A stretch of DNA of 64,000 nt from Candidatus Doudnabacteria bacterium (GCA_016218585.1 JACRDK010000004.1:85347-149346), one strand, 5' to 3'. Positions 27,855 to 44,160 are shown, counted from the stretch's first letter. The notes: generated by a model not told the origin, from the letters alone. Numbers and translations: made by a program.

Positions 27855-28409
27855 TTAAGACTTTAATAACATAGAAAATTTTTCCCGAAACTTTTTAACC
27901 TTTGGGCTTATAACCACGGCGCAGTATGGGTTGCCGGGATTGTTTAAATAATAATTCTGATGATAGTTTTCCGCCAAGTAAAATTTTTCTAAAGGGCGAA
28001 TTTCGGTAACAATTGGCGAACTATAAATTTTTTCCGCTTCAACTTCTTTAATTACTTCTTCGGCAACTTGCTTCTGCTGCGGCGAGCTATAAAATATAGC
28101 CGAGGCATACTGAGCTCCCACGTCATTGCCCTGCCTGTCTTTGGTAGTCGGATCGTGCACCGCAAAAAATACTTCCAATAATTGTTTAAAGGAAATTACG
28201 CTTGAATCAAATTCTATTTTGGCAACTTCTACGTGTCCCGTATTACCGCCACAAACCTGTTCATAACTCGGGTTTTCCAAACTGCCGCCAGTGTATCCAG
28301 GCAAAACCGAACTTACACCTTTTAAGTTTTGAAACACCGCTTCCGTGCACCAAAAGCAACCGGCACCAAGAACGGCTATTTCTGTTTGTTGATTTTGATT
28401 ATTCATCAT
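27855..28409 (-). CDS. msrA: Peptide-methionine (S)-S-oxide reductase MsrA
   Basis: GAGCFWCTEAVF active-site motif, GY(T)GG. Confidence 0.9.
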   Translation of the reverse strand: MMNNQNQQTEIAVLGAGCFWCTEAVFQNLKGVSSVLPGYTGGSLENPSYEQVCGGNTGHVEVAKIEFDSSVISFKQLLEVFFAVHDPTTKDRQGNDVGAQYASAIFYSSPQQKQVAEEVIKEVEAEKIYSSPIVTEIRPLEKFYLAENYHQNYYLNNPGNPYCAVVISPKVKKFREKFSMLLKS

Positions 28410-31900: not shown

Positions 31901-32932
31901 TTAATTAACATTAATTGTCCCTCTATACATTCCCATACTGCACATAAAGGCAATTTGAGTTGGTTTGCTTGGGCTATGAAAAGTTACCTCGCCGCTGCTG
32001 CCCAGCGGAACAACTTTTTGTACCCCCAATGAAGGGATGGTGAAATCCTGAACGCAGCTGGAACCGCCTTGATTCACTAATTTTATTTTTATATCTGAAT
32101 CTTTTGGCACGGAAAAACTGTTTGGGCTATAACCGGAAGCGCCTATGGTAAGAGTAATGTTTGAATTAGTTTCCCCAACCGCGGTTTGGTTGCCGCTTGG
32201 GCAATAGGCAATGGCGCAAAAAGCTCTGCTTCCAATATCCGTAAGGCTAATTGGCTTGCCGGTTAGCGCCAGCGCGTTATTTAAATTAAACAAAGACAAC
32301 AATATTATGGCAAAAGCGGCGGCGCGAAAAAACTTTTTATGCCAAAAGTCTCCCAAACGAGTGGCAAAATATCCGAGCAAAAAAAAGATCGGGCTGGTTC
32401 CCAAAACAAACGCATACATTATCCCCGCTCCCCTAATAGCGCTGCCGCTGGCTATTGCCAAAGCCATCATGGCCTGGGTTGTACCGCACGGAATGAACAC
32501 CGTAAAAGCCCCCAAAATTGCCGGCGCAAAAATATCTTTACTCTTTGACTGTTTTCTAACCAACCGAGTTAAAAACTTTGGCGGCTGAATTATGAAATAG
32601 CGGAAAAACGGGTGCACGTCTAACAAAGCCATAGCGGTGCCAAACATAAAAATCACCACGGCAAATTGCATAACCAATTTTACAGTGAGCGATAAAGCGA
32701 ACAACGAACCAAACCAGCCAAGAAGCAAGCCTAAAATTGTATAAGCCACAAGCTTCGCCAGCAAAAACCACAAAATTGGCGCAGCTGTTCCTTTTTGCGC
32801 TTCACCCTTTAGCCGCTCCTCTTCCCGCTGAGCAATGGTTGAAGCAAGCAGCCCGCCCTGTACGGCAAGGCAAGTAAGCCCTCCGGTTAGCAGGCCTGTT
32901 AAAAATATTGCGATAAAGGACGTATTTTGCAT
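31901..32932 (-). CDS. Membrane protein: DsbD_2/CcdA-like transmembrane domain fused to a C-terminal cupredoxin-like domain
   Basis: N-terminal FLTGLLTGGLTCLAVQGG; 6-7 TM; C-terminal beta domain with CxxxC...C...M (CAIAYCP, SSCVQDF, FMCSMGMY). Confidence 0.5.
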   Translation of the reverse strand: MQNTSFIAIFLTGLLTGGLTCLAVQGGLLASTIAQREEERLKGEAQKGTAAPILWFLLAKLVAYTILGLLLGWFGSLFALSLTVKLVMQFAVVIFMFGTAMALLDVHPFFRYFIIQPPKFLTRLVRKQSKSKDIFAPAILGAFTVFIPCGTTQAMMALAIASGSAIRGAGIMYAFVLGTSPIFFLLGYFATRLGDFWHKKFFRAAAFAIILLSLFNLNNALALTGKPISLTDIGSRAFCAIAYCPSGNQTAVGETNSNITLTIGASGYSPNSFSVPKDSDIKIKLVNQGGSSCVQDFTIPSLGVQKVVPLGSSGEVTFHSPSKPTQIAFMCSMGMYRGTINVN

Positions 32933-32946
32933 TTAACTAATTTAAA

Positions 32947-33417
32947 TTATTTTTGTTTAATTTTTTTATATAACATGGCAATGGTTAGCAACAGCGCCAC
33001 CCAAACTAAGACAACCGTAATAACGCACATTAACGAATACCAAACAAACTGATGACCATAACCTGACATCATGCCAAACGGAGCAGCCGACATCATGTTA
33101 AAACCATATTGCTGATTTCTTAGCGCCGGGACAGACGAGGTAAAAGTCATTACCGGGTAACTGGGTTTAATTAATCCATACATGTCTTTTTGTTCGTCGG
33201 AAGTCAACTGGCCATTTTGCAATTTTTCCATATAGCCCTCTATTTTTTGAGCATTAGCATCCTGGCTTATTGTTACCGCTCCGCTGCCCGATTGTACTCT
33301 GGTCGTATTCATCATGCCATAACCCGGAACCAGAGCCGCCGCCATTGTGGCCCCTGCCGGCAATAAAATAGCTGCCGCTAAAACTAATCCTAAGAAACTT
33401 TGTTTTTTGGTTGTCAT
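32947..33417 (-). CDS. Met-rich membrane-anchored protein, possible copper-binding accessory protein
   Basis: Signal/anchor plus MMNTT, FNMMSAAPFGMMSGYGH Met motifs, C-terminal TM. Confidence 0.4.
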   Translation of the reverse strand: MTTKKQSFLGLVLAAAILLPAGATMAAALVPGYGMMNTTRVQSGSGAVTISQDANAQKIEGYMEKLQNGQLTSDEQKDMYGLIKPSYPVMTFTSSVPALRNQQYGFNMMSAAPFGMMSGYGHQFVWYSLMCVITVVLVWVALLLTIAMLYKKIKQK

Positions 33418-33491: not shown

Positions 33492-35795
33492 TTATATTTT
33501 AACACGTTTTAAACGTAGTGAGTTAACCACCACGGAAACAGAAGAAAGAGCCATGGCCAGCCCCGCAAACATTGGGTTTAAGTGCCAACCGAACAACGGA
33601 TAAAACAAACCAGCGGACAGCGGAATGCCAACGACATTGTACGCAAAAGCCCAAAATAAATTTTGTTTAATGGTGCTTAAAGTTTTTTGCGACAAGCGGA
33701 TTGCCCCCAAAATTTTCGTTATATCCCCTTTAAGCAAAGTAATATCCGCCGACTCAATGGCAATGTCGGTGCCGGTTGCCATAGCAATGCCAATATTGCT
33801 TTGAGCCAAAGCCGGCGCGTCATTTATGCCGTCTCCGGCCATTGCCACAACCAAGCCCTGCGCCTGGAGCTGTTTTATTTTTATTGCTTTATCCTGCGGC
33901 AGCGCCCCGGCTAAAACTTCATCTATGCCGATTTGCCTGGCAGCATACTCAGCCGTCTGCTTGTTGTCGCCGGTTAGCATAATTACTTTAATATTTAATT
34001 TATGCAACTGCCTCACTGTTTCTTTGGCCACTTCTTTAATTTTATCGGCAATAATAATTATCCCTAAAACCGCGTGCTCATCCATAACCAAAACCGGAGT
34101 CTTCCCCTGGCCGGTAAATTCGCTGAGTTGATTATTATCAAAATTTAATTTCAAATCTTCCGCTAATTTCGGGCTGCCGACAAAATATTTTTTACCACTA
34201 ATTATCCCTTTCACTCCCCGCCCCTCCAAATTTTCAAAGTCTGTTACTGGTGATAATTTTATATTTTCTTCTTTAGCTTTATTTGCCACGGCATCCGCCA
34301 ATGGGTGCTCAGATTTATTTTCCAGCGACCCTGCAATCTGCAGTAAACTTGCTACTTGATGCTTGCTACTTGATACTTTGATATCAGCGACGGTCGGCTT
34401 CCCTTCCGTTAAGGTTCCGGTTTTGTCCACGACCAATACATTTATGCTTCTAAGCTTTTCCATTGCTTCCGCATTCTTTACTAAAATTCCGTTTTGCGCC
34501 CCTTTGCCAACGCCAACTATTATGGCGGTGGGAGTAGCCAGGCCCAAGGCGCATGGACAGGCAATTACCAAAATACTGACGAAAGACAATATTCCTAACG
34601 ACACGTTTTGGCCAACCAGCAACCATAGCAATAAAGACAACAGCGCAATACCTAAAACTACCGGCACAAAAATTGCGGAAATTTTATCCGCCAACTTTTG
34701 GATTGGCGCTTTAGACCCTTGCGCTTCCCCCACCATTTTTATAATGTGGGCCAGCAGCGTTTCGCCACCGACTTTGGTTGCGCGAAAAATAAAGCTTCCC
34801 TGCTTATTCAGCGTTCCGCCTATTACTTCATCTCCCGCCTGCTTGGTTGCGGGCATGGCTTCCCCGGTAACCATTGCTTCATCTATAGAAGATTTACCTT
34901 CTATAATTACTCCGTCTACCGGCAACTTTGCGCCCGGCTTCACAATTATCAAATCGCCAATTTTAACCTGCTCAACGGAAATTTCTTTTTCTCCTTCAGG
35001 CAATTTTATTATGGCGGTCTTAGCCTGGAGATTCATTAATTTTTCCAAAGCCTGCCCGGTTTTAATTTTGCTTCTTATTTCCAAATATTTTCCTAAGGTA
35101 ATAAAACTCACCACCACAATGGTCACGTCAAAATATGTTTCTCCGGGTAAATTTAAAGTCTTAACCAGATTGGGAAACAACACCACTGCGGCGCTATATG
35201 CATAGGCCGACAGCGTGCCTAAACCTACCAAAGTATCCATATTGGCAGCGCCAAAGCGAACAAAATTCCACAAGCCTTTTAAAAATGGCCGCCCAATCCA
35301 AAATAAAATAATTGTAGCTAAAACTAATAAAATTTTAGAATATACTTCGCCCATTAAAAAGAAACCCGGCAAACCGCTAAAGCCCGCAGCCACAACGTCC
35401 CAGAGCATTGCCAAAAACACTAAACCCGCTACGGGCAAAGCAAAATATAATTTGTGCTTATAACTATTTAGCTCTTTTAGTTTTTCTTCCTTGCTTTGAT
35501 TCAAACCCAAATGCTGGCTGTGATCCATACCGCTCATTACGCTGCCGTCCGGCATAACGTGGCTGCTTGGGTGCGAGGGTTCTTGTTCAAGTAAAAATTT
35601 ATACCCCAACGGTTCAATCTTCTCGGACAAATCCTGCAGGCTCGCCTGTTTTGGATCATATTCCACTTCGGCCGTTTCGGTGCCGTAGTTTACTTCCGCT
35701 CCGGCAACCCCAATCGTTTTTTTTAGAGTTCGCTGAATAACATTAGCGCAAGAAGCGCAATGCATTCCGGCAATTGGAATTTTAACTTTTTTCAT
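33492..35795 (-). CDS. copA: Copper-translocating P1B-type ATPase
   Basis: N-terminal HMA GMHCASCAN; CPC in TM6; DKTGTLT; GDGINDAPAL; HP motif. Confidence 0.9.
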   Translation of the reverse strand: MKKVKIPIAGMHCASCANVIQRTLKKTIGVAGAEVNYGTETAEVEYDPKQASLQDLSEKIEPLGYKFLLEQEPSHPSSHVMPDGSVMSGMDHSQHLGLNQSKEEKLKELNSYKHKLYFALPVAGLVFLAMLWDVVAAGFSGLPGFFLMGEVYSKILLVLATIILFWIGRPFLKGLWNFVRFGAANMDTLVGLGTLSAYAYSAAVVLFPNLVKTLNLPGETYFDVTIVVVSFITLGKYLEIRSKIKTGQALEKLMNLQAKTAIIKLPEGEKEISVEQVKIGDLIIVKPGAKLPVDGVIIEGKSSIDEAMVTGEAMPATKQAGDEVIGGTLNKQGSFIFRATKVGGETLLAHIIKMVGEAQGSKAPIQKLADKISAIFVPVVLGIALLSLLLWLLVGQNVSLGILSFVSILVIACPCALGLATPTAIIVGVGKGAQNGILVKNAEAMEKLRSINVLVVDKTGTLTEGKPTVADIKVSSSKHQVASLLQIAGSLENKSEHPLADAVANKAKEENIKLSPVTDFENLEGRGVKGIISGKKYFVGSPKLAEDLKLNFDNNQLSEFTGQGKTPVLVMDEHAVLGIIIIADKIKEVAKETVRQLHKLNIKVIMLTGDNKQTAEYAARQIGIDEVLAGALPQDKAIKIKQLQAQGLVVAMAGDGINDAPALAQSNIGIAMATGTDIAIESADITLLKGDITKILGAIRLSQKTLSTIKQNLFWAFAYNVVGIPLSAGLFYPLFGWHLNPMFAGLAMALSSVSVVVNSLRLKRVKI

Positions 35796-35796
35796 A

Positions 35797-36063
35797 TTAT
35801 TTGTTTTTTAGCTTGTAAATTTTTACCATTTCTTTTACGGCCTTCTGGCTTTGGCCGTGGGTAAACTGATGTGGGACGTGTTCGGTTAAGTGATTTTCCA
35901 ACAAATCCGCATTAAAGCTCTGCAAGGACTTCTCCACAGCCAGGCTCTGCGTTATTATGTCCACACAATATTTGTCGGCTTCTACCATTTTTTCTATGCC
36001 CACCACCTGCCCGGCAATGCGGTGCAAATGGCTTATTAACTTCTTTTTATACTTTTCTTGCAT
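35797..36063 (-). CDS. csoR: CsoR family copper-sensing repressor
   Basis: HRIAGQVVGIEKMVEADKYCVDIITQ... with the conserved Cys/His copper ligands. Confidence 0.85.
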   Translation of the reverse strand: MQEKYKKKLISHLHRIAGQVVGIEKMVEADKYCVDIITQSLAVEKSLQSFNADLLENHLTEHVPHQFTHGQSQKAVKEMVKIYKLKNK

Positions 36064-36102
36064 AAATCTTATATCTTAATTCATAAATCTTAAATTTACT
36101 AT

Positions 36103-36118
36103 ATACCCCCCTAGGGTA
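36103..36118. promoter_or_regulatory. Candidate CsoR operator
   Basis: ATACCCCCTAGGGTAT pseudo-palindrome about 40 bp upstream of the csoR start, resembling CsoR boxes (TACCC-N-GGGTA). Confidence 0.5.
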
Positions 36119-36438
36119 TGTTGTCAACTAACAATTAAAATATGTGGTTACTAAAAGCATACTAATATTGTTTTGATGTTAACATGATAAAATGCTAAAA
36201 TATCCATATGAACCCCGTAAAAAATTCCATTCTACGGGGAATAATAAAGGTTACTCGGAGTTTAAACTTACGAGGTATTGTACCCAAGGAGCAGACTGCT
36301 TTTCGCAGCTTAAGCTCGCGAGGTATTGAACCTGTATTACTTCCTCGGCTCGCTTGCCTTGCAAGCAAGGCAGCTCGCTCTACGTCGCTAATAAACAGCA
36401 TTTTTACAAGTCCATGAATGTTTTAAAACAGAAAAAAT

Positions 36439-37266
36439 ATGTCAATTTCTAACGGGGTGAATGACCCAATTATTTGTTTTGGCCAACAACCCTGCGGTTT
36501 TTTCCCCAAACGCTACTTAGTGGGAAAAATTAATGCTGCCCGGGCTTTGCAAAAAGACATCGGCGGCAAGATAGTCTTTTTTTATCATGATTCAGATGCC
36601 GACTATAGGGAAACAATTACCGTAATGAAAGATCTGCAAACAGATGCGGAGGTCCGTTTAAATTTTATCCAGGAAAACAAACTGCAAAAAAAATTCTCGC
36701 CGCTTTACTTAAAAAGGATTCCGGCCGGATGGAAAGAAGAAATCTTAAAACAACTGCCCCGCTTTTTACCGCCAGCTCCACCTTATGAGGTTAACGGCAA
36801 ACCGGCAGACAGCCTAAAAGATATTTTTGAGCGAGTAAACGAAAAAACGGTAGCAGATTTTTGCCTGGAGATGTATAGAAAAATGCATTTGCTGGATGGC
36901 ATGGAAATAGTTCGCTCATCGGACAAAGATTTTAGGCTCGCCACCCCCGACATAAAGGGTGAATATTTTGCCGATCTCCCCTACCAGGGAGAAATTGTCC
37001 GCGCCAAGATTGAAAACAACAAAGCGGCGCTGCATGAAGGCGGCGGCAAATACACTTACTTTGATTTGCCGGAGAAAATTGAAAAGTGGCAAATCAACCC
37101 GGGAAAAGACGAAAGGTTTGCCTGGATGAATTCGGTTATTCATTGCACTCACTACATTGCCGGCAACTCGGAATACGAATATATTAAGCGTGAGCAATTC
37201 CCGGAAGTAAAATTTATGAAGCGTGAACAAATTGACCAGCCGGAAATGGCCTGGCTATCTAACTAA
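36439..37266 (+). CDS. Short BshC-like protein (bacillithiol cysteine-adding enzyme family, N-terminal Rossmann-like core only)
   Basis: ICFGQQPCGFFPKRYLVGKINAARAL aligns by eye to the BshC GGQQAGLLTGPLYTIHK motif; KIVFFYHDSDADYRE aligns to the PIFWVAGEDHDLDE block; 275 aa against about 540 for BshC. Confidence 0.45.
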   Translation: MSISNGVNDPIICFGQQPCGFFPKRYLVGKINAARALQKDIGGKIVFFYHDSDADYRETITVMKDLQTDAEVRLNFIQENKLQKKFSPLYLKRIPAGWKEEILKQLPRFLPPAPPYEVNGKPADSLKDIFERVNEKTVADFCLEMYRKMHLLDGMEIVRSSDKDFRLATPDIKGEYFADLPYQGEIVRAKIENNKAALHEGGGKYTYFDLPEKIEKWQINPGKDERFAWMNSVIHCTHYIAGNSEYEYIKREQFPEVKFMKREQIDQPEMAWLSN

Positions 37267-37280
37267 TTAATACCCTATTA

Positions 37281-38015
37281 ATGAAAACCACTATGTCCGC
37301 CAAAGGCGGATCCGCCTTTGGCGGAAGAATACTTGCAATTGGTGCCCACCCGGACGACTTGGAATTTGGCTGCGGCAGTTTGCTGGCCAAAGAAGCCTCT
37401 GCGGGCTCGCAAATAAAACTTTTAGTTCTGTCTAAAGGAGAGGCTGGAACCGCCGGCACGCCCGAAAGCCGCGCCGAAGAATCCCGGGCAGCCGCCAAAT
37501 TAATTGGCGCGGAAATTGAATTTCTGGAAATGGGCGGCGACTGTCATATAAAAAATACAGCCGAGAATGCTTTTGTTATTGCCAAGTACATTCGCGAATT
37601 TAAACCCGATGTCATTTTAGCGCCGCACACGGACGAGAACCAACACCCGGACCACGCGGAAGCCGGAAAAATGGCCCGCGATGCCGCCCGTTTTGCGCGC
37701 TATGGGGGTTTGGCCGAATTAAAAGGCTTAGCTACCCATAAAATTACCGCGCTCTATTATTACCCTGTTACTCAGGATTTTGCCGCTCCGGTTGATTTGG
37801 TGGTTGATACCACCGAAGTTTATGATACCTGGGTAAAAATGATAAATTGCCATAATACCCAGCTGCAAAATAAAGATTATGAGAGCCTGGTTACCGCCCG
37901 CGCCAAGGCGCTTGGCGTAGCCATTGGCACTAAGTCCGCACAAGGGTTATGGAAAAATGACCCTATCAGGCTAAATAATTTATCCGATCTTAACCTGTCA
38001 TCCAGAAATTATTAG
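37281..38015 (+). CDS. PIG-L/LmbE family N-acetylglucosaminyl deacetylase (BshB/MshB-like)
   Basis: ILAIGAHPDDLEFGCGSLLAK, HTDENQHPDH zinc-binding motifs. Confidence 0.8.
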   Translation: MKTTMSAKGGSAFGGRILAIGAHPDDLEFGCGSLLAKEASAGSQIKLLVLSKGEAGTAGTPESRAEESRAAAKLIGAEIEFLEMGGDCHIKNTAENAFVIAKYIREFKPDVILAPHTDENQHPDHAEAGKMARDAARFARYGGLAELKGLATHKITALYYYPVTQDFAAPVDLVVDTTEVYDTWVKMINCHNTQLQNKDYESLVTARAKALGVAIGTKSAQGLWKNDPIRLNNLSDLNLSSRNY

Positions 38016-38069
38016 AAAGAATCGGTATTATCCGTATCATTAGTATTAATCCCTATATCGGCATCATAT

Positions 38070-39200
38070 ATGAAAATTGGAATTGTCTGATATCCTTCCG
38101 TTGGTGGCAGCGGCATTGTGGCAACAAACTTAGGGCTAGAACTGGCGCTCCTGGGGCATCAGGTTCATTTTATTTCTTACGAATCGCCTTTTCGTTTGGA
38201 GAAAAAACATAAAAATATTTTTTTCCACAAAGTTCAAATTAACGAATACAGCCTGTTTAAATATCCGGACTACACCCTGCCGCTGGCCGTTGCCATTGAA
38301 GAAGTGCAAAAAAGATACGGGCTGGACGTAGTGCATGTGCATTACGCCGTGCCGCACGCCACCGCGGCGCTACTGGCTAAAAGAATTATGAGGCAAAATG
38401 GAATTCAACCGCCTAAAATAATTACCACTTTGCATGGAACCGACATTACCCTGCTGGCCAAAGATCCTGCTCTTTTTGAAATAATTAAATATTCGGTTGA
38501 AAGAAGCAACGGCGTAACTGCGGTATCACAAAATTTAAAAAATGATACAATAAAATTTTTAAAAACCGAAAAAGATATTGAGGTTATTTACAATTTTTAT
38601 TCTCCTCCGGCGCCAAAAAAAACCCACAACGCCATGCGCCGAGAACTTAAAATAAAAGACAGCGATGTTTTGGCTATTCATTTGTCTAATGTTCGTCCGG
38701 TAAAAAGAATTCCTGATTTGTTGAAAGTGGCGGCAAAAATGAAAACACAAAAAAACTTTAAACTGTTAATTTTAAGCGGCGGCGATTTTAAACCGTTTAA
38801 ACCGCTAGTTAAAAAACTTAAACTTGGCAAACAACTTATTGTTAAAGAAAATGTTAAAGATATTGAAAACTATTTAAATGCTGCCGACTTAGGGCTTTAC
38901 ACATCGGAAACAGAAAGTTTTGGCATGGGTATTTTGGAAACAATGAGTTATGAAAATCCCATTGTCAGCACTAATGTTGGCGGCGTGCCGGAAGTAATGG
39001 AAGAAGGAAAAAGCGGATTTTTGCTGGCGCTGGGCGATGTTTCCGGAATGGCAAACAAGGTAAAACTTTTGGTGAATAATGAAAATTTAAGAAAACAAAT
39101 GGGACAACACGCCAAAAAAATCGCCTGCGAAAAATTCTGCTCCAAAGTAGTCGTCCCCCAGTATTTGGAATACTACAAAAAAATAATAGAAGAAAAGTAG
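38070..39200 (+). CDS. GT4 glycosyltransferase, BshA-like (N-acetyl-alpha-D-glucosaminyl L-malate synthase family), interrupted by an in-frame TGA at 38088-38090; the ORF track starts at GTG 38118
   Basis: Own translation from ATG 38070: [34 protein letters not shown] matches the BshA N-terminus [22 protein letters not shown] with TGA at the conserved Cys; C-terminal GT4 motifs (E..G....E....G.P.V). Confidence 0.7.
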
Positions 39201-39224: not shown

Positions 39225-39250
39225 AAACCCCCTTAAAGAAGGGGGTTTTA
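39225..39250 (+). terminator. Rho-independent terminator after the GT4 gene
   Basis: AAAAACCCCCTTAAAGAAGGGGGTTTTATT. Confidence 0.65.
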
Positions 39251-39253
39251 TTA

Positions 39254-39282
39254 TTGACAATTATGTCAATATATGATATAAT
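39254..39282 (+). promoter_or_regulatory. Perfect consensus sigma70 promoter with palindromic -35 region
   Basis: TTGACA (39254-39259), 17-nt spacer, TATAAT (39277-39282); -35 is part of the palindrome TTGACAATTATGTCAA; followed by RBS GGAGGA and ATG at 39313. Confidence 0.6.
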
Positions 39283-39309
39283 AATTACCTACTTCTGAGG
39301 AGGAGTATT

Positions 39310-39612
39310 GTGATGAAGGCCATCATTTTAGTATTTTTTTCGCTCTCCCTGCAGTGTACAGTAGGGCAGGAACCCGCCAAACCGGCACCACCGAGCGGTG
39401 TGACTGCTTCGCAGGGTGCAAAGCCGGCACCGGAGAAGAAGACCGGCAACGAACCGCTCGAGGCCTTGAGCCACGAAGAGGGATGTCGACGGGCAAGGTA
39501 TTTCTTCTACCGACCCGATCGATACCTCCAGCTCACCCGCATGAGCGGAAACGAAAACACGGTGCAGAACATGCTTCTGCACCAGATGACGGCAAACGGT
39601 TGCGACTGGTAG
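39310..39612 (+). CDS. Small secreted protein (100 aa), compositionally GC-rich relative to the genome
   Basis: Signal peptide MMKAIILVFFSLSLQCTVG; Pro/Ala-rich linker; two Cys (EEGC...ANGCDW); preceded by consensus promoter and strong RBS, followed by a terminator; chosen over the antisense ORF 39328..39648. Confidence 0.5.
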   Translation: MMKAIILVFFSLSLQCTVGQEPAKPAPPSGVTASQGAKPAPEKKTGNEPLEALSHEEGCRRARYFFYRPDRYLQLTRMSGNENTVQNMLLHQMTANGCDW

Positions 39613-39638
39613 AACCGGTCGCAGCCAACAACACAAAA

Positions 39639-39678
39639 AACGACGCAAGGGACCCTAAAGGCACCCTGCGTCGTTTTC
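39639..39678 (+). terminator. Rho-independent terminator
   Basis: ACGACGCAAGGGACCCTAAAGGCACCCTGCGTCGTTTTCATTT. Confidence 0.65.
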
Positions 39679-39685
39679 ATTTAAC

Positions 39686-40357
39686 TTATTTTTTCCACTC
39701 TACAATTTTCCCCATTTTAATTTCTATTTTATCCGCGGGGCGCAGATTTTTTATTTGCAGCTTATTTAAAATTTTATAATGTTTTATTTTATCCAGCTTT
39801 TGCGGTATTGCAAAAAGCTGCTCTGTGCTAGTTCGCCAGTTTATTGTTTCCCTTCCCTCTCTCTCTGAGGCAGAGGGATTAAGGGTGAGGGGGTGCTTGT
39901 CAAAAAAACTTAAATCAAAAATTTCCGAATATTCGCGCAATGTTTTTTGCCCGGTGTTTAAAAAATATTCATGGAAGTAAGACATAACCAATTCCCGCAA
40001 AGTTTTATAAACCGGCTCGCGAAAACGCAGTACGCCGTGATTAGTTTTACTTATGGCGCCAAAACAGCCAAATTTTTTATAAATTGCAACTACATGGTCA
40101 TCATCCCCGGGCTTGACCGAACGAAGATCAACCACAAGCGGCCTTGCCCCATGAAATTCCAAAATCGCCACAGCCAAGAGCGCGCCTTCCATACAATGTG
40201 CGGTTTTATGTTTTATAACCTGGCGCGGGGAATAACACGTCTCCCCGCTTTTCTCAAAGTTAAACTTTAACGAATTTAAAAAGCCCTGAATTTTTTGCGG
40301 CGAATTCAGTTTTTTAAAAAGTTTTATTTCCGCTTTTGTATACAATCCATTCTCCAT
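39686..40357 (-). CDS. Transglutaminase-like (Cys-His-Asp) domain protein, putative cysteine protease
   Basis: CMEGALLAVAILEFHGARPLVV...DDDHVVAIYK fits the transglutaminase-core pattern C.E.A...G.PAR.V...H.W.E.Y. Confidence 0.45.
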   Translation of the reverse strand: MENGLYTKAEIKLFKKLNSPQKIQGFLNSLKFNFEKSGETCYSPRQVIKHKTAHCMEGALLAVAILEFHGARPLVVDLRSVKPGDDDHVVAIYKKFGCFGAISKTNHGVLRFREPVYKTLRELVMSYFHEYFLNTGQKTLREYSEIFDLSFFDKHPLTLNPSASEREGRETINWRTSTEQLFAIPQKLDKIKHYKILNKLQIKNLRPADKIEIKMGKIVEWKK

Positions 40358-40392: not shown

Positions 40393-41295
40393 TTATTTTT
40401 TTATTGCGTGGCCGCCAAACTGCTTGCGCATAAGCGCCACAATTTTGTTGGAAAATTTATTTTGATTGGCCGGATCTTCCGACTCGCTGCGGACTTTTAA
40501 GCTGTCTTCTATTACCCGAACATCCACGCCCAATTCGTGGCCGGCGTTAACTGTCCATTCCCCTTCGCCGCTAGCTTTTATATAGCCTTTGGTTCCGGCA
40601 ATATCTTCCCCGTCAAAAATATTATAAACCAAATCTATGAGCCAGCTGCGCACTACGCTGCCCTGCTGGTAAACTTTAGTAACCTGCTTCAAATCCAAAT
40701 TAAAATCGCTGGCTTGCATTACCGCATAGCCTTCGCCAATGGCTTCCATCATTCCGTATTCAATGCCATTATGCACCATTTTTACAAAATGTCCGGCTCC
40801 GTTTTTCCCCATAAGCCCGTAATTTTCCCCGGAAGATAAAACTTTAAAAATAGGTTCTACCACGTGCCATTGTTCTTTTGGTCCGCCAACCATAAGCGCA
40901 AAGCCGTTCTCTTCGCCCCAAACGCCCCCGCTGGTGCCGCAGTCGTAAAATACCACGCCTTTGGCACTTAGCTCCGCGGCTCTCTTTATAGATTCTTTAT
41001 ATAAGCTGTTACCGCCGTCTATAACAATGTCCCCCGCGCGCAAGTGCGGCCCGATTTGCTTTTCAATAAATTCAGCGACTATTTCATGGGGCAACATTAT
41101 CCAAAAAATCCTGGGGCTTTGCGCCATGGCGCCAACAAGCTCGTCAACTTTTTCAAAAGTTTTAACTCCGGCTTTTGCGGCTTCCTCGCGCGGCTCCGGC
41201 GATCGATTCCAGGCCAATACCTCAAAATTATTTTTTTGTAATCTACGGGCAATTTGTATACCCATTTTTCCTAAACCAAAAATTGCAATTTTCAT
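40393..41295 (-). CDS. gnd: 6-phosphogluconate dehydrogenase, short (~300 aa, YqeC/GntZ-type) form
   Basis: MKIAIFGLGKMGIQIARRL Rossmann motif; 6PGD C-terminal domain. Confidence 0.8.
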   Translation of the reverse strand: MKIAIFGLGKMGIQIARRLQKNNFEVLAWNRSPEPREEAAKAGVKTFEKVDELVGAMAQSPRIFWIMLPHEIVAEFIEKQIGPHLRAGDIVIDGGNSLYKESIKRAAELSAKGVVFYDCGTSGGVWGEENGFALMVGGPKEQWHVVEPIFKVLSSGENYGLMGKNGAGHFVKMVHNGIEYGMMEAIGEGYAVMQASDFNLDLKQVTKVYQQGSVVRSWLIDLVYNIFDGEDIAGTKGYIKASGEGEWTVNAGHELGVDVRVIEDSLKVRSESEDPANQNKFSNKIVALMRKQFGGHAIKK

Positions 41296-41753: not shown

Positions 41754-42545
41754 CTATCCTGCCTGCATCCGCGTATCCGCGGTCTTTCTGACCTCAATAC
41801 ACATAAACAGCGGAATTTCCTTGCGGGCTTTGTCTTCCGCCAATTTTCTCGCGCCCTTGTCGCTGGTTTTATGGGAAATCCATTCTTCCAAGCGGCTTAC
41901 TACAAGTCCCGATTTATAAAAAGCTTTAAAATAAACCTGCAGCGGATGGTGAAAAGAATAAGTGAATTTTTTATTCCTCATTTCTTTTACTCCTTGGGTC
42001 ATATCCACGGCCTGGGTAATTTCCGACATATAGCCGTCTATTCTGCGGTACTGAACTTTTTGCTTTTCGTCATAATCCCAATTCGAAGCTCCGGGGACGC
42101 GAAAGGTAGGATGATTTAAAACCAGCACCGCCCTCCCCCCGGGTTTTAGCACCCGGGACATTTCGCCAATGGCCGCCGGCAAATTTTTCATATTTTGCAA
42201 AGCCAAGATGCAAATAGCTGCATCGAAGCGGTTATCAGCAATGCCGTTTAATTTCTCCGCCGACAAAACCAAATAACTTTCGTTCTTGCCGGATTGTGTT
42301 TTTGCCAAAGAAATTAATTCAGCGCCAATATCCACCCCCAAAACTTTAGCTCCAGCCTTTGCCAGTTCGCGCGAAAAATAACCTTGGCCGCAGCCAATAT
42401 CAATTATGTTTTCGCCAGGACTTATATTCAGCAGCCTTAGCAAATTTGGCTTTATTACTTTTTCCTGATAGGTATCTTCCCCTTCTTCTAGTAATTGGTT
42501 ATACCATCCGGCTACTTTACCCCAGGAAGTATTTGAATTGACCAT
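41754..42545 (-). CDS. Class I SAM-dependent methyltransferase (Methyltransf_11-like)
   Basis: IIDIGCGQGYFSRELAKAGAKVLGVDI motif I; LKPGGRAVLV. Confidence 0.8.
   Translation of the reverse strand: MVNSNTSWGKVAGWYNQLLEEGEDTYQEKVIKPNLLRLLNISPGENIIDIGCGQGYFSRELAKAGAKVLGVDIGAELISLAKTQSGKNESYLVLSAEKLNGIADNRFDAAICILALQNMKNLPAAIGEMSRVLKPGGRAVLVLNHPTFRVPGASNWDYDEKQKVQYRRIDGYMSEITQAVDMTQGVKEMRNKKFTYSFHHPLQVYFKAFYKSGLVVSRLEEWISHKTSDKGARKLAEDKARKEIPLFMCIEVRKTADTRMQAG
41775..41784. repeat. Right inverted repeat (ATCCGCGGTC) flanking the GxxExxY gene
   Basis: See left repeat; overlaps the last codons of the downstream methyltransferase ORF. Confidence 0.55.
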
Positions 42546-42681: not shown

Positions 42682-44160
42682 TTACTTTGTCCGCCACTCT
42701 CTTAAATCTTTTTTTATAAATTCATCAGCTTCTTTTGGTCCCGCGCTTTTTTGCTTATAGCTAAATACCGGCAAGTTTTTAAACTCAGGATTTTCCGTAA
42801 TGCTGTCTATAAATTTCCAGGAAGATTCTATTTCATCGCTGCGAATAAACAAGCGCTGGTCGCCTTCTATAAAGTCCAACAGCAACCGCTCATACGCCCC
42901 GGGCAGTTCGGTCATAAATGCCTGCTTGTAGCCAAAGCCGTAGTCGCCTTGGTGAATATCTACGCCAAAACCGGGAACTTTGTTGTTGATTTGCAAATGT
43001 ACCGATTCGTCCGGTTGAATGCGAAAAGTTAAAACATTCGCCGTGCAGTTGCGAAAAATACAGCGCGCCGGTTCTTTAAAATGCACCGTAACTTCCGCAA
43101 CTTTTTTATGCAGGGCTTTTCCAGTGCGCAAATAAAACGGCACACCCTGCCAGCGCGGCGTATTAATAAAAACTTTTAGCGCGGCAAAAGTTTCTGTTTG
43201 ACTGTCGGCCTTAACTTCTTTTTTGTATCCCGCATACTGCCCTTTAATAACAGACTGCCTTAACTCCCCTGCTGGCAGCTGCAAAGCTTTTAAAATTTTT
43301 AGCTTCTCGTTGCGAATATCTTCGGTGGTTAAATTATATGGCTCGTTCATGGTAATTAAAGACAGCATTTGCAAAATATGGTTTTGCACAAAATCTTTAA
43401 TCGCTCCGGTCTGGTCGTAATATTCAGCGCGCTTGGCTGTAGTGTCATTCTCCAAAACGCTAATTTCCACATGGTCAATATTTTTGTTATTCCAAAGCGG
43501 CTCAAAAATGCCGTTAGCAAAGCGGACCACCATTAAATTTTGCACTGTTTCCTTGCCTAAATAATGGTCTATGCGGTAAATTTGTTCTTCTTCAAAAAAC
43601 TTCTTTAAAAGCTTATTCAAAGCACTGGCTGACTTATAATTAAAACCAAACGGCTTTTCCACCAAAACTCGAACTTTCCTCTCATGGGCTTTGCAGGACA
43701 TAAGCAGGCCGGAATTTTTTAAAATGTGCGCGATGCCGGAAAAATACTGCGGGCTGGTTGCAAAGTAATACAAGCGATTATAGCAAACGTGCTTGTTTGG
43801 CTGGTCGTGGTCGGATAAAAGCTTTGCCAAACCGGTAAAAGAAGCGACGTCATCAAAATTTCCCTGATAATAAGTTAAGCGCTTTAAAAAAGACTGTTTA
43901 ACCTTTGTCGGCAGTTTTTTTAGCACAGTTGATTTTTTTAAAACAAAATCAAAATAAGATTTTGCGTTTAACTCTTTACGGCCAACGCAAACCAGCCTAA
44001 AACTCTTAGGCAGCATCCCATGCTCTTCCATGCGCAACAAAGCCGGCAATAAATAATCGGCCGAAAGGTCTCCGGTCGCGCCAAAAATTGTTAAAATTGT
44101 CGGCGCTATTTGTTTGCCCGACAAACGTTTTTGAGTATCTTCTACTAAGCTTTTTTTCAT
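42682..44160 (-). CDS. zwf: Glucose-6-phosphate 1-dehydrogenase
   Basis: GATGDLSADYLLPAL NADP site, EKPFG, RIDHYLGKE active-site motif. Confidence 0.9.
   Translation of the reverse strand: MKKSLVEDTQKRLSGKQIAPTILTIFGATGDLSADYLLPALLRMEEHGMLPKSFRLVCVGRKELNAKSYFDFVLKKSTVLKKLPTKVKQSFLKRLTYYQGNFDDVASFTGLAKLLSDHDQPNKHVCYNRLYYFATSPQYFSGIAHILKNSGLLMSCKAHERKVRVLVEKPFGFNYKSASALNKLLKKFFEEEQIYRIDHYLGKETVQNLMVVRFANGIFEPLWNNKNIDHVEISVLENDTTAKRAEYYDQTGAIKDFVQNHILQMLSLITMNEPYNLTTEDIRNEKLKILKALQLPAGELRQSVIKGQYAGYKKEVKADSQTETFAALKVFINTPRWQGVPFYLRTGKALHKKVAEVTVHFKEPARCIFRNCTANVLTFRIQPDESVHLQINNKVPGFGVDIHQGDYGFGYKQAFMTELPGAYERLLLDFIEGDQRLFIRSDEIESSWKFIDSITENPEFKNLPVFSYKQKSAGPKEADEFIKKDLREWRTK

What the first reader, a model, noticed from the sequence alone, without database searches (positions are those of the whole stretch)
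36439..39200. Bacillithiol-like low-molecular-weight thiol biosynthesis cluster with a half-size BshC homologue, divergent from a copper-resistance cluster
There are three co-directional genes. The first is a 275-aa protein that I align by eye to BshC's GGQQ(A)G.L.GPLY...K and VFW..EDHDLDE blocks, although BshC is about 540 aa. The second is a PIG-L/LmbE deacetylase (BshB-like). The third is a GT4 enzyme with a clear BshA-like N-terminus. Together they would make a GlcNAc-malate-derived thiol. A minimal BshC would be novel, and the adjacency to csoR-copA-copZ suggests a thiol/copper homeostasis island. The 245-bp leader (36195-36438) upstream of the BshC-like gene is structured. It contains the duplicated motif CGAGGTATTG(T/A)ACC, a CCCCGTA...TACGGGG hairpin and the palindrome GCTTGCCTTGCAAGCAAGGCAGC.
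Basis: partly seen in the sequence, partly recalled or inferred. Interest (0 to 1): 0.6.

Follow-up and report, generated by a model that had tools for sequence, protein, structure and literature searches.

The report
Half-size BshC in bacillithiol-type operon
A three-gene operon for a bacillithiol-type protective thiol in an ultra-small (CPR) bacterium starts with an unannotated, half-size structural relative of the cysteine-adding enzyme BshC, and the same gene trio is conserved in CPR bacteria, Verrucomicrobiota and some Planctomycetota, groups for which the surveys I read predict no such thiol.

Summary
The three co-directional genes are real. Gene 3 is BshA at equivalog level (395.7 bits, cutoff 273.7). 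Gene 2 is a PIG-L deacetylase closest to BshB1 but below its cutoff. Gene 1 (275 aa) matches nothing in Pfam, NCBIfam or PDB by sequence. Two AlphaFold models (pLDDT 91.8 and 94.4) each have B. subtilis BshC (4WBD) as by far the best Foldseek match (E 4e-11 and 1e-11). Class I tRNA synthetases follow at E 3e-4 or weaker. The protein covers only the Rossmann-like core (about BshC 85-357) and lacks the N-terminal segment and the coiled-coil domain. In 80 genomes the order gene1-bshB-bshA holds in 68, and 73 of 75 informative loci have bshA downstream. These include cultured Pelagicoccus, Thalassobacterium and Coraliomargarita, where the protein is named "hypothetical". No canonical BshC lies nearby. 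The catalysed reaction is inferred, not shown. The csoR-copA adjacency is lineage-restricted and no copZ was found. The "structured leader" is a 245-bp inverted-repeat-bounded insertion carrying a widespread structured repeat absent from Rfam. In the closest relatives the gene starts 5-8 nt after the -10 box. In this genome bshA also carries an in-frame TGA at a Cys codon.

The parts
36439..37266 (+). Mini-BshC gene (275 aa; NCBI MBI5530038.1, named 'hypothetical protein'). It corresponds to the Rossmann-like core of BshC only. The present ATG lies inside the inserted element. The ancestral start is the ATG at 36208, joined to 36462 onward once the insertion is removed.
   Evidence: - ORF.
- No Pfam, NCBIfam or PDB sequence match.
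- AF2 model with pLDDT 91.8.
- Foldseek top hit 4WBD BshC, E 4.2e-11, TMq 0.60.
- Replicate with P0130: E 1.0e-11, TMq 0.67.
- hhalign register mini 11-249 to BshC 85-357.
- NCBI name.
37281..38015 (+). BshB-like PIG-L/LmbE deacetylase (244 aa)
   Evidence: PF02585, E 7.6e-25. Best NCBIfam match is TIGR04001 BshB1 at 151.6 bits, below the 182.5 cutoff. Relatives show the same pattern, 126-156 bits.
38070..39200 (+). bshA (GT4 N-acetylglucosaminyl-L-malate synthase), interrupted by an in-frame TGA at codon 7 (38088-38090). NCBI annotates only the 360-aa remainder starting at GTG 38118.
   Evidence: TIGR03999, 395.7 bits against a 273.7 cutoff. [14 protein letters not shown] read. The same codon is TGC or TGT in 71 of 74 relatives and Ser in 2. 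TGA is otherwise a normal stop in this window.
36173..36201 (+). Operon promoter (TTGATG-17-TAAAAT with TG). It is conserved in relatives and lies 6 nt upstream of the ancestral ATG at 36208-36210.
   Evidence: Promoter scan. Alignment with L001, L003, L008, L014, L018 and L022, where the ATG follows the -10 box by 5-8 nt.
36213..36457 (+). Its terminal inverted repeats are CCCCGTAAAAAAT and ATTTCTAACGGGG. It is flanked by a duplicated TGAA (36209-36212 and 36458-36461).
   Evidence: Inverted repeats. Removing 36213-36461 restores ATGAATGACCCAATT, which reads MNDPIICFGQQ as in relatives. The stretch is absent from L001, L002 and L003. The same inverted-repeat pair sits at the same site in L010, L011 and L017, and also elsewhere.
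36240..36395 (+). A structured 'core' repeat nested inside the insertion. It contains the 30-nt direct repeat (36255-36284 and 36303-36332), a variable hairpin (36352-36374) and the invariant 3' motif CTCGCTCTACGTCGCTAATAAA (36374-36395).
   Evidence: Direct repeat. Homologues in L007 and L009. Exact 22-mer present in at least 120 metagenome contigs. All 8 hairpin pairs show compensatory changes. No Rfam match.
39229..39253 (+). Intrinsic terminator after bshA; the hairpin could act in both directions.
   Evidence: sequence.
35797..36063 (-). csoR-type copper-sensing repressor, divergent from the operon. A conserved operator-like palindrome TATATACCCCCCTAGGGTAT lies at 36100-36119.
   Evidence: PF02583, E 5.3e-24. 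Palindrome conserved in L001, L002, L003, L008, L014, L018 and L022. The csoR promoter overlaps it at 36127-36098 on the - strand.
33492..35795 (-). CopA-type P1B ATPase with an N-terminal HMA domain
   Evidence: GMHCASC, CPC and DKTGT motifs read in the translation. Not scanned against Pfam. Co-occurs with csoR in about 15 loci.

Best explanation
Genes 36439-39200 form one operon, mini-bshC, bshB, bshA, for a bacillithiol-type low-molecular-weight thiol.

Inferred pathway:
- BshA joins UDP-GlcNAc and L-malate to give GlcNAc-malate.
- The PIG-L enzyme removes the acetyl group to give GlcN-malate.
- The 275-aa protein adds cysteine, or a closely related acyl group, to the free amine. It is a stripped-down homologue of BshC that keeps only the class-I-tRNA-synthetase-like Rossmann core.

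Shown here:
- BshA identity at equivalog level.
- PIG-L identity of gene 2.
- BshC-like fold of gene 1, and absence of the BshC N-terminal segment and coiled-coil domain.
- Conservation of the three-gene order across CPR bacteria, Verrucomicrobiota and Gemmataceae.
- No canonical BshC within 10 kb in any of the 80 loci.

Inferred, not shown:
- The reaction catalysed by the mini enzyme and the exact product.

State of this particular genome:
- An inverted-repeat-bounded repeat element has been inserted at codon 2 of the first gene. That insertion is the so-called leader.
- bshA has a TGA where relatives have Cys.
- The local copy may therefore be impaired, or the TGA may be a sequencing error.
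For: - BshA: TIGR03999, 395.7 bits against a 273.7 cutoff, next family 82.9 bits. Relatives score 373-427 bits.
- BshB-like: PF02585. TIGR04001 BshB1 is the best NCBIfam hit.
- Mini-BshC fold, first model: pLDDT 91.8. 4WBD BshC is the only Foldseek PDB hit with E below 1e-3 (4.2e-11, probability 1.0, TMq 0.60). The next hit is GluRS at 6e-3.
- Mini-BshC fold, replicate: P0130, 42% identical, modelled on a different and more diverse alignment, pLDDT 94.4. 4WBD again ranks first at 1.0e-11 with TMq 0.67. GlnRS and GluRS follow at 2.6e-4 or weaker, and MshC ranks 44th.
- hhalign is colinear over 197 columns, mini 11-249 to BshC 85-357, E 0.023. The same register appears with a second alignment, E 0.048.
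- Invariant residues of the two families coincide in that alignment: G-Q-Q-x-G, D53/D134, D55/D136, E58/E139, M230/M337, T237/T344, G242/G350, E245/E353 and Y248/Y356.
- A BshC HMM run against all 1468 ORFs of the loci puts mini-family proteins in its top five sub-threshold hits. They make up 24 of 64 hits but only 75 of 1468 database entries.
- Synteny: 57 of 80 loci have contiguous mini-bshB-bshA, 11 more have all three on one strand with extra DNA between, and 5 have mini-bshA only.
- bshB and bshA are the only neighbours shared across phyla.
- Family size: 5548 proteins at 90% clustering; the 120 best listed either carry no name or are named 'hypothetical'.
- A 2025 RefSeq survey found no Verrucomicrobiota or Spirochaetota with the complete canonical BshABC set (PMC12719100 supplement).
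- A 2018 survey stated that Verrucomicrobia, Planctomycetes and Spirochaetes have no documented or predicted thiol (PMC6282198).
Against: - No sequence method reaches significance: no PF10079 or NCBIfam BshC-family match even at E up to 10, hhalign probability only 1-2%, and an exhaustive HMMER profile search showed no canonical-length BshC among its 150 listed hits.
- The homology therefore rests on predicted structures, not solved ones.
- The reaction of canonical BshC itself has never been reconstituted in vitro (PMC5790435), so there is no catalytic-residue template against which to test the mini enzyme.
- The BshB-like protein is below the BshB1 equivalog cutoff in every lineage tested.
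- I could not scan whole genomes for a distant canonical bshC.
- In this window bshA has a premature stop and the first gene has lost its native start context.
Confidence: 0.7

Rival explanations
1. The 275-aa protein is a BshC-fold ligase, but it attaches something other than cysteine, or acts on a different acceptor. The operon would then make a GlcN-malate derivative that is not bacillithiol, for example a different thiol or a non-thiol conjugate.
For: The mini family is only about 15% identical to BshC. It has its own invariant residues that BshC lacks, such as H50-D51-S52-D53, N80-K81, H199-G201 and H238-Y239. The companion deacetylase is a divergent BshB subfamily below the equivalog cutoff. 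Variation on the bacillithiol backbone is known, as in N-methyl-bacillithiol (PMC6282198).
Against: BshA is at equivalog level, so GlcNAc-malate is the likely scaffold. The closest fold by about seven orders of magnitude is the cysteine-adding enzyme. The strict three-gene set mirrors the three-step bacillithiol pathway.
Confidence: 0.18
2. The 275-aa protein is an unrelated member of the HUP/Rossmann nucleotidyl-transferase class, and the cluster makes a cell-envelope glycoconjugate rather than a soluble thiol.
For: No sequence family membership. Class I tRNA synthetase cores also appear among the fold hits. GT4 and PIG-L enzymes are common in envelope pathways (established knowledge).
Against: The GT4 enzyme scores 395.7 bits to BshA, against at most 83 bits to any envelope GT4 model. 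BshC outranks every other fold by a factor of about 1e7 in two models. No lipid-carrier, flippase or polymerase genes are conserved beside the trio.
Confidence: 0.05
3. In this particular genome the cluster is a decaying remnant. The TGA at bshA codon 7 and the element inserted at the start of the first gene would inactivate the pathway.
For: TGA replaces a Cys codon found in 71 of 74 relatives. TGA is a genuine stop here. The insertion separates the promoter from the gene and creates a 69-aa upstream ORF that starts at the ancestral ATG.
Against: All three ORFs are otherwise intact and highly similar to relatives. A single-base assembly error in a metagenome-assembled genome would explain the TGA equally well. 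Insertions bounded by the same inverted repeats, supplying the same in-frame ATG (M-T/S-I-S-N-G), sit before intact orthologues in L010, L011 and L017, so an insertion at this site is compatible with keeping the gene.
Confidence: 0.3
4. The 245-bp upstream stretch is a cis-regulatory leader, a riboswitch or attenuator, specific to thiol synthesis.
For: It folds better than shuffled sequence (z about -3). It contains a hairpin supported by covariation. The right inverted-repeat arm overlaps the first codons, so pairing of the two arms could occlude translation initiation (inference).
Against: It is absent from the closest relatives, where the gene starts 5-8 nt after the -10 box. Its core occurs in at least 120 unrelated, mostly intergenic places with no common downstream gene. 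The inverted-repeat unit also occurs elsewhere, for example L126 with TAAA flanks and nested in L082. There is no Rfam match.
Confidence: 0.05
5. The TGA in bshA encodes selenocysteine.
For: It sits exactly at a conserved Cys position. A 6-bp hairpin begins 8 nt downstream.
Against: Only 1 of 74 orthologues has TGA. The hairpin sequence encodes the conserved PSVGGSG motif and so is constrained by coding. No tRNA-Sec is present in the window.
Confidence: 0.03

Closest known systems
BshC (YllA), bacillithiol cysteine-adding enzyme; Pfam PF10079 + PF24850; PDB 4WBD
   Same: It is the best structural match by about seven orders of magnitude in two models. The alignment is colinear and the GQQxG, DxDxxE and GxxExxY motifs are shared. 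It is genomically linked to bshA and bshB.
   Different: It is about half the size, 255-300 aa against about 540 aa. It lacks BshC residues 1-84 and the whole coiled-coil dimerisation domain (PF24850, residues 380-539). It gives no HMM match to PF10079 and is about 15% identical. It is almost always the first gene of a tight bshB-bshA operon, whereas canonical bshC only occasionally co-localises with bshA (PMC5790435).
MshC (mycothiol cysteine ligase) and class I aminoacyl-tRNA synthetase catalytic cores (GluRS, GlnRS, TyrRS, YadB/Glu-Q-RS)
   Same: Same Rossmann-like superfold. These are the next Foldseek hits: E 2.6e-4 to 1e-2, with MshC 8HFN at 9e-3.
   Different: Much weaker matches (TMq 0.26-0.39). 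No sequence match to any of these families was returned by Pfam, NCBIfam or PDB searches. No tRNA-binding domains.
Canonical bacillithiol pathway genes bshA and bshB1 of Bacillus
   Same: BshA is at equivalog level. The deacetylase is closest to BshB1.
   Different: The deacetylase falls below the BshB1 trusted cutoff in every lineage tested. All three genes form a single operon here.
MITE-like and palindromic dispersed repeats of bacteria (comparison for the 'leader')
   Same: Terminal inverted repeats, a 4-bp flanking duplication (TGAA here, TAAA in L126), small size, no ORF of its own, nesting of one repeat inside another, and many dispersed copies.
   Different: No parent transposase was identified. 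The core repeat has hairpins supported by covariation, like a structured RNA, and is absent from Rfam. Its function is unknown.

Membership tests
BshC (PF10079 Rossmann-like_BshC + PF24850 CC_BshC) | Significant match to the PF10079 profile or to an NCBIfam BshC-family model | tested here: not met
   No Pfam hit even at E up to 10. No NCBIfam hit. A BshC HMM built from A3 gives at most 8.4 bits.
BshC (PF10079 Rossmann-like_BshC + PF24850 CC_BshC) | C-terminal coiled-coil dimerisation domain (PF24850, residues 380-539 of B. subtilis BshC) | tested here: not met
   The protein ends at 275 aa. The alignment to BshC stops near residue 357.
BshC (PF10079 Rossmann-like_BshC + PF24850 CC_BshC) | Three-dimensional fold of the BshC Rossmann-like core (4WBD) | tested here: met
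   Foldseek E 4.2e-11 with TMq 0.60 and E 1.0e-11 with TMq 0.67. The models have pLDDT 91.8 and 94.4.
BshC (PF10079 Rossmann-like_BshC + PF24850 CC_BshC) | Conserved motifs GGQQxG, EDHDxDE and GPGExxYW | tested here: inconclusive
   Partly kept: GQQPxG, D53-x-D55-x-x-E58 and G242-x-x-E245-x-x-Y248 align with invariant BshC positions. The alignment itself scores only E 0.02-0.05.
BshC (PF10079 Rossmann-like_BshC + PF24850 CC_BshC) | Co-occurrence with bshA and bshB | tested here: met
   bshB and bshA follow on the same strand in 68 of 80 loci, and bshA in 73 of 75 informative loci.
BshC (PF10079 Rossmann-like_BshC + PF24850 CC_BshC) | Required for adding cysteine to GlcN-malate in vivo | not testable with these tools
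   Needs genetics or metabolite analysis. Even canonical BshC has not been reconstituted in vitro (PMC5790435).
BshA (TIGR03999) | Score above the equivalog trusted cutoff | tested here: met
   395.7 bits against 273.7. Orthologues score 373-427 bits.
BshA (TIGR03999) | Intact reading frame that includes the N-terminal GGSG loop | tested here: not met
   In-frame TGA at codon 7 (38088-38090). Relatives have Cys there.
BshB1 (TIGR04001) / PIG-L (PF02585) | PIG-L domain, and a score above the BshB1 cutoff | tested here: inconclusive
   PF02585 is met (88.3 bits against 28.2). TIGR04001 is the best hit but scores 151.6 bits, below 182.5. Relatives score 126-156 bits.
CsoR-CopA copper resistance module | CsoR-family repressor, P1B ATPase and GC-rich palindromic operator; copZ chaperone | tested here: inconclusive
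   CsoR is met (PF02583). CopA motifs were read in the sequence. A conserved palindrome lies at 36100-36119. No copZ ORF was found.
Rfam riboswitch or leader families | Match of the 245-bp upstream stretch to a curated RNA family | tested here: not met
   No hit in 36195-36438 at E up to 10. No hit at gathering threshold. No hit on 20 other loci carrying the core repeat.

The most novel reading that the evidence does not exclude
The mini-BshC family is a self-sufficient, minimal cysteine ligase. It would make bacillithiol, or a close analogue, the main low-molecular-weight thiol of many CPR/Patescibacteria, Opitutales-type Verrucomicrobiota and Gemmataceae. No thiol is predicted for these lineages in the surveys I read. 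Because it lacks the N-terminal and coiled-coil domains, it would also define the catalytic core and could offer a simpler protein with which to attempt the BshC reaction that has never been reconstituted.
Probability: 0.45. Interest if true: 0.85.

Novelty: new variant of a known kind. Interest (0 to 1): 0.72.

Why it matters
- Bacillithiol surveys require a canonical BshC. They therefore report Verrucomicrobiota and Spirochaetota as lacking the pathway (PMC12719100 supplement) and Verrucomicrobia, Planctomycetes and Spirochaetes as having no predicted thiol (PMC6282198).
- The half-size BshC homologue is invisible to Pfam and NCBIfam, yet it sits directly upstream of bshB-bshA in most of the 80 sampled genomes. 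If it is the missing third enzyme, it would close that gap for the lineages that carry the operon, Verrucomicrobiota and Gemmataceae among them.
- It would add a thiol redox buffer to the very sparse known stress physiology of CPR bacteria.
- It points to cultured strains (Pelagicoccus mobilis, Thalassobacterium, Coraliomargarita) in which the prediction can be tested directly.
- It shows which parts of BshC are dispensable. That matters because the BshC reaction and its activated cysteine donor remain unknown (PMC5790435).

Tried and rejected
- Sequence-only identification of the 275-aa protein failed: Pfam at E up to 10, NCBIfam, PDB phmmer, and a PDB profile search.
- An exhaustive HMMER profile search of 1.84 billion representatives found only the compact family itself. 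There were 240 representatives, many of them fragments, and no protein of canonical BshC length among the 150 listed.
- hhalign against a single BshC sequence gave only a 22-column match.
- Riboswitch reading of the leader: rejected.
- TGA recoding (genetic code 4 or 25): rejected. TGA ends 4 of 51 long ORFs and the frames close soon after.
- NmbA-like role for the nearby methyltransferase (41754-42545): only generic methyltransferase domains were found, and the gene is conserved in only 10 loci. Not pursued.
- The BshC structure paper (PMC4303302) is not held in the library, so I could not check liganding residues.
- Literature searches linking bacillithiol to CPR or Verrucomicrobia found no description of a short BshC.
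Full report
**Source and gene layout**

The window comes from a Candidatus Doudnabacteria (CPR) metagenome-assembled genome. The 275-aa protein is identical to NCBI MBI5530038.1, "hypothetical protein HY918_00870", on a 174-kb contig.

On the + strand there are three ORFs: 36439-37266 (275 aa), 37281-38015 (244 aa) and 38118-39200. The gaps between genes are 14 nt and 54 nt (the latter counted to the bshA ATG at 38070). A promoter-like site lies at 36173-36201 and a terminator at 39229-39245. Divergent on the - strand are a CsoR-family repressor (PF02583) and a CopA-type ATPase.

**Genes 2 and 3**

Gene 3 matches TIGR03999 (BshA) at 395.7 bits against a trusted cutoff of 273.7. The next family reaches only 82.9 bits.

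Gene 2 has a PIG-L domain. It is closest to BshB1, at 151.6 bits, below the 182.5 cutoff. The same sub-cutoff pattern holds for orthologues in Pelagicoccus, Gemmataceae and CPR genomes. It therefore represents a divergent BshB-like subfamily.

**Gene 1: sequence evidence**

Sequence methods do not identify this protein. There is no Pfam hit at E up to 10, no NCBIfam hit, and no PDB hit by phmmer or by profile.

The family is nevertheless large and tightly conserved:
- 5548 clusters at 90% identity. The 120 best listed have no Pfam domain and either carry no name or are named "hypothetical protein".
- Only 240 representatives at 50% identity.

**Gene 1: structure evidence**

An AlphaFold model built on 49 homologues has pLDDT 91.8. 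Foldseek against the PDB returns exactly one hit below E 1e-3: B. subtilis BshC, 4WBD, at E 4.2e-11, probability 1.0 and TMq 0.60. GluRS and GlnRS follow at about 1e-2.

As a replicate I modelled P0130, a family member 42% identical to the window protein, on a different and more diverse alignment (pLDDT 94.4). BshC again ranks first, at E 1.0e-11 and TMq 0.67. Class I tRNA synthetase cores follow at 2.6e-4 or weaker, and MshC is at rank 44.

**Gene 1: profile comparison**

Profile-profile comparison against 19 Bacillaceae BshC sequences is individually weak, at E 0.023 and 0.048. It is, however, colinear over 197 columns, mapping mini residues 11-249 to BshC 85-357.

Positions that are invariant in both families coincide:
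- G-Q-Q-x-G
- D53/D134, D55/D136, E58/E139
- M230/M337, T237/T344, G242/G350, E245/E353, Y248/Y356

A BshC HMM searched against every ORF of the fetched loci ranks mini-family proteins in its top five sub-threshold hits.

PF10079 spans BshC 1-378 and the coiled-coil domain PF24850 spans 380-539. The mini protein is therefore the Rossmann-like core without the first ~84 residues and without the dimerisation domain.

**Genomic context elsewhere**

A scan of one genome per species returned 80 loci. tblastn and a tally of gene order gave:

| Arrangement | Loci |
|---|---|
| mini-bshB-bshA contiguous | 57 |
| All three on one strand with extra DNA between | 11 |
| mini-bshA only | 5 |
| Contig ends just after the mini gene | 5 |
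| Other | 2 |

By record label, the loci comprise 56 CPR or unclassified genomes, 17 Verrucomicrobiota, 2 Gemmataceae, 2 Leptospirales, 1 Polarisedimenticolia and 2 others. In the 2 Leptospirales and the Polarisedimenticolia locus the bshB-bshA pair could not be confirmed (short contigs or a reversed, weak PIG-L match).

The Verrucomicrobiota include cultured strains: Pelagicoccus mobilis, Thalassobacterium spp., Coraliomargarita spp. and strain DG1235. In RefSeq and UniProt their orthologues are named "hypothetical" or "uncharacterized".

All-against-all clustering of neighbouring ORFs shows that bshB and bshA are the only partners shared across phyla. No canonical BshC lies within 10 kb in any locus.

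**Literature context**

- BshC was itself discovered through co-occurrence with bshA. Its reaction has never been reconstituted, and its activated cysteine donor is unknown (PMC5790435).
- A 2018 survey lists Verrucomicrobia, Planctomycetes and Spirochaetes as lineages with no documented or predicted thiol (PMC6282198).
- A 2025 RefSeq-wide survey found no Verrucomicrobiota or Spirochaetota with the full canonical BshABC set (PMC12719100 supplement).
- Searches of the held library found no description of a short BshC.

**Most likely mechanism**

BshA makes GlcNAc-malate, the PIG-L enzyme deacetylates it, and the mini-BshC adds cysteine to give bacillithiol or a close analogue. The first two steps follow from family membership. 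The third is inferred from fold and synteny.

**The "leader"**

The stretch is nevertheless an insertion, not an ancestral leader.
- In the closest relatives (L001, L003, L008, L014, L018, L022) the start codon lies 5-8 nt after the conserved -10 box, so the ancestral mRNA is essentially leaderless.
- In the window, 245 bp (36213-36457) sit between a duplicated TGAA. They are bounded by imperfect inverted repeats, CCCCGTAAAAAAT and ATTTCTAACGGGG.
- Removing the insertion restores ATGAATGACCCA, which reads MNDPIICFGQQ.
- The present ATG at 36439 lies inside the element. The ancestral ATG now opens a 69-aa upstream ORF.
- The same inverted-repeat pair, supplying the same in-frame M-T/S-I-S-N-G start, occurs at this site in L010, L011 and L017 with unrelated interiors. 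It also occurs elsewhere, for example in L126 with TAAA flanks.
- Nested inside the window copy is a second repeat. The copies are mostly intergenic and share no downstream gene.
- All eight pairs of its variable hairpin show compensatory changes.
- Rfam has no match to either repeat.

**State of the operon in this genome**

bshA codon 7 is TGA. In relatives the codon is TGC or TGT in 71 of 74 and Ser in 2. TGA is a normal, if rare, stop in this window. The likely explanations are a nonsense mutation or an assembly error, and selenocysteine is unlikely. NCBI annotates only the N-terminally truncated 360-aa BshA.

**The copper link**

csoR and copA flank the operon in only about 15 Doudnabacteria-type loci. 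The conserved CsoR-type palindrome (36100-36119) overlaps the csoR promoter and ends 53 nt upstream of the operon's -35 box. No copZ was found. A functional thiol-copper link is plausible from general knowledge but is not supported as a conserved feature.

**Verdict**

The core of the finding stands and extends well beyond this window. It is a new, structurally minimised variant of a known enzyme family, in a known pathway type, in lineages where the pathway was thought to be absent. Biochemical function remains to be shown.

Noticed in passing
window 38088-38090: In-frame TGA at codon 7 of bshA ([14 protein letters not shown]). The position is Cys (TGC or TGT) in 71 of 74 orthologues. NCBI therefore annotates a truncated BshA that starts at GTG 38118 and lacks the GGSG loop.
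   Followed up: yes
window 36240-36395; L007:7754-7919; L009:3119-3210; L081-L200: A structured repeat of roughly 70-170 nt that ends in the invariant CTCGCTCTACGTCGCTAATAAA. It has one to two upstream hairpins, each followed by GGTATT, and a variable hairpin supported by covariation. The exact 22-mer is present in at least 120 metagenome contigs, mostly intergenic. It is not in Rfam and could be an undescribed CPR RNA or mobile-element family.
   Followed up: partly
window 36213-36225 and 36445-36457; L010:5876/6093; L011:9928/10007; L017:7750/7835; L126:8578/8660: A short inverted-repeat unit, CCCRTTAGAAAT...ATTTCTAAYGGG. It sits between the promoter and the mini-bshC gene in four divergent genomes, where its right arm supplies the in-frame start codon. 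It also occurs at unrelated sites. Whether this reflects site-specific insertion or an old, retained insertion is unresolved.
   Followed up: partly
window 39254-39680: A small gene cassette with unusually high G+C (about 0.6). It has a perfect TTGACA-17-TATAAT promoter, a GAGGAGG Shine-Dalgarno sequence, a 100-aa ORF (39310-39612) with a signal-peptide-like N-terminus, and a hairpin followed by a T run just downstream (about 39637-39678). It has no Pfam match, the exact protein is not in the protein collection, and there is no blastn match in any related locus. In L001, bshA and the CPR-C4 gene are only 55 bp apart.
   Followed up: partly
window 39686-40357 (-): Homologue of CPR-C4, a vasohibin-like cysteine protease with a solved structure (7OB6; E 1e-54). 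Its in vivo role is unknown, and its authors found its gene neighbourhood uninformative. Here it is convergent with bshA, and it is present in 28 of the fetched CPR loci.
   Followed up: partly
window 40393-41295 (-) and 42682-44160 (-): 6-phosphogluconate dehydrogenase-like and glucose-6-phosphate dehydrogenase genes lie just downstream and recur in 26 and 20 of the related loci. Together with MsrA (27855-28409) and a DsbD-cupredoxin protein (31901-32932), they give the region a redox and NADPH theme.
   Followed up: no
window 36100-36119: The palindrome TATATACCCCCCTAGGGTAT is conserved in every related locus that has csoR. It overlaps the csoR promoter and is probably the CsoR operator.
   Followed up: partly
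window 32947-33417 (-): A Met/His-rich 156-aa protein with a predicted signal or membrane segment and no Pfam match. It may be a periplasmic copper-binding protein.
   Followed up: no
P0204 and P0150 (database proteins): P0204 (475 aa, from a high-GC source) carries mini-BshC segments followed by a PIG-L motif, suggesting a fused or frameshifted mini-bshC-bshB. P0150 is a full-length family member that has lost the GQQ and HDSD motifs and may be an inactive paralogue.
   Followed up: no
L064:5639-8161; L079:8298-10004: In Opitutales-type genomes a sodium:solute symporter gene ends right at the mini-bshC start (19 loci). A second protein of about 840 aa containing a PIG-L domain lies a few kb upstream (12 loci).
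   Followed up: no
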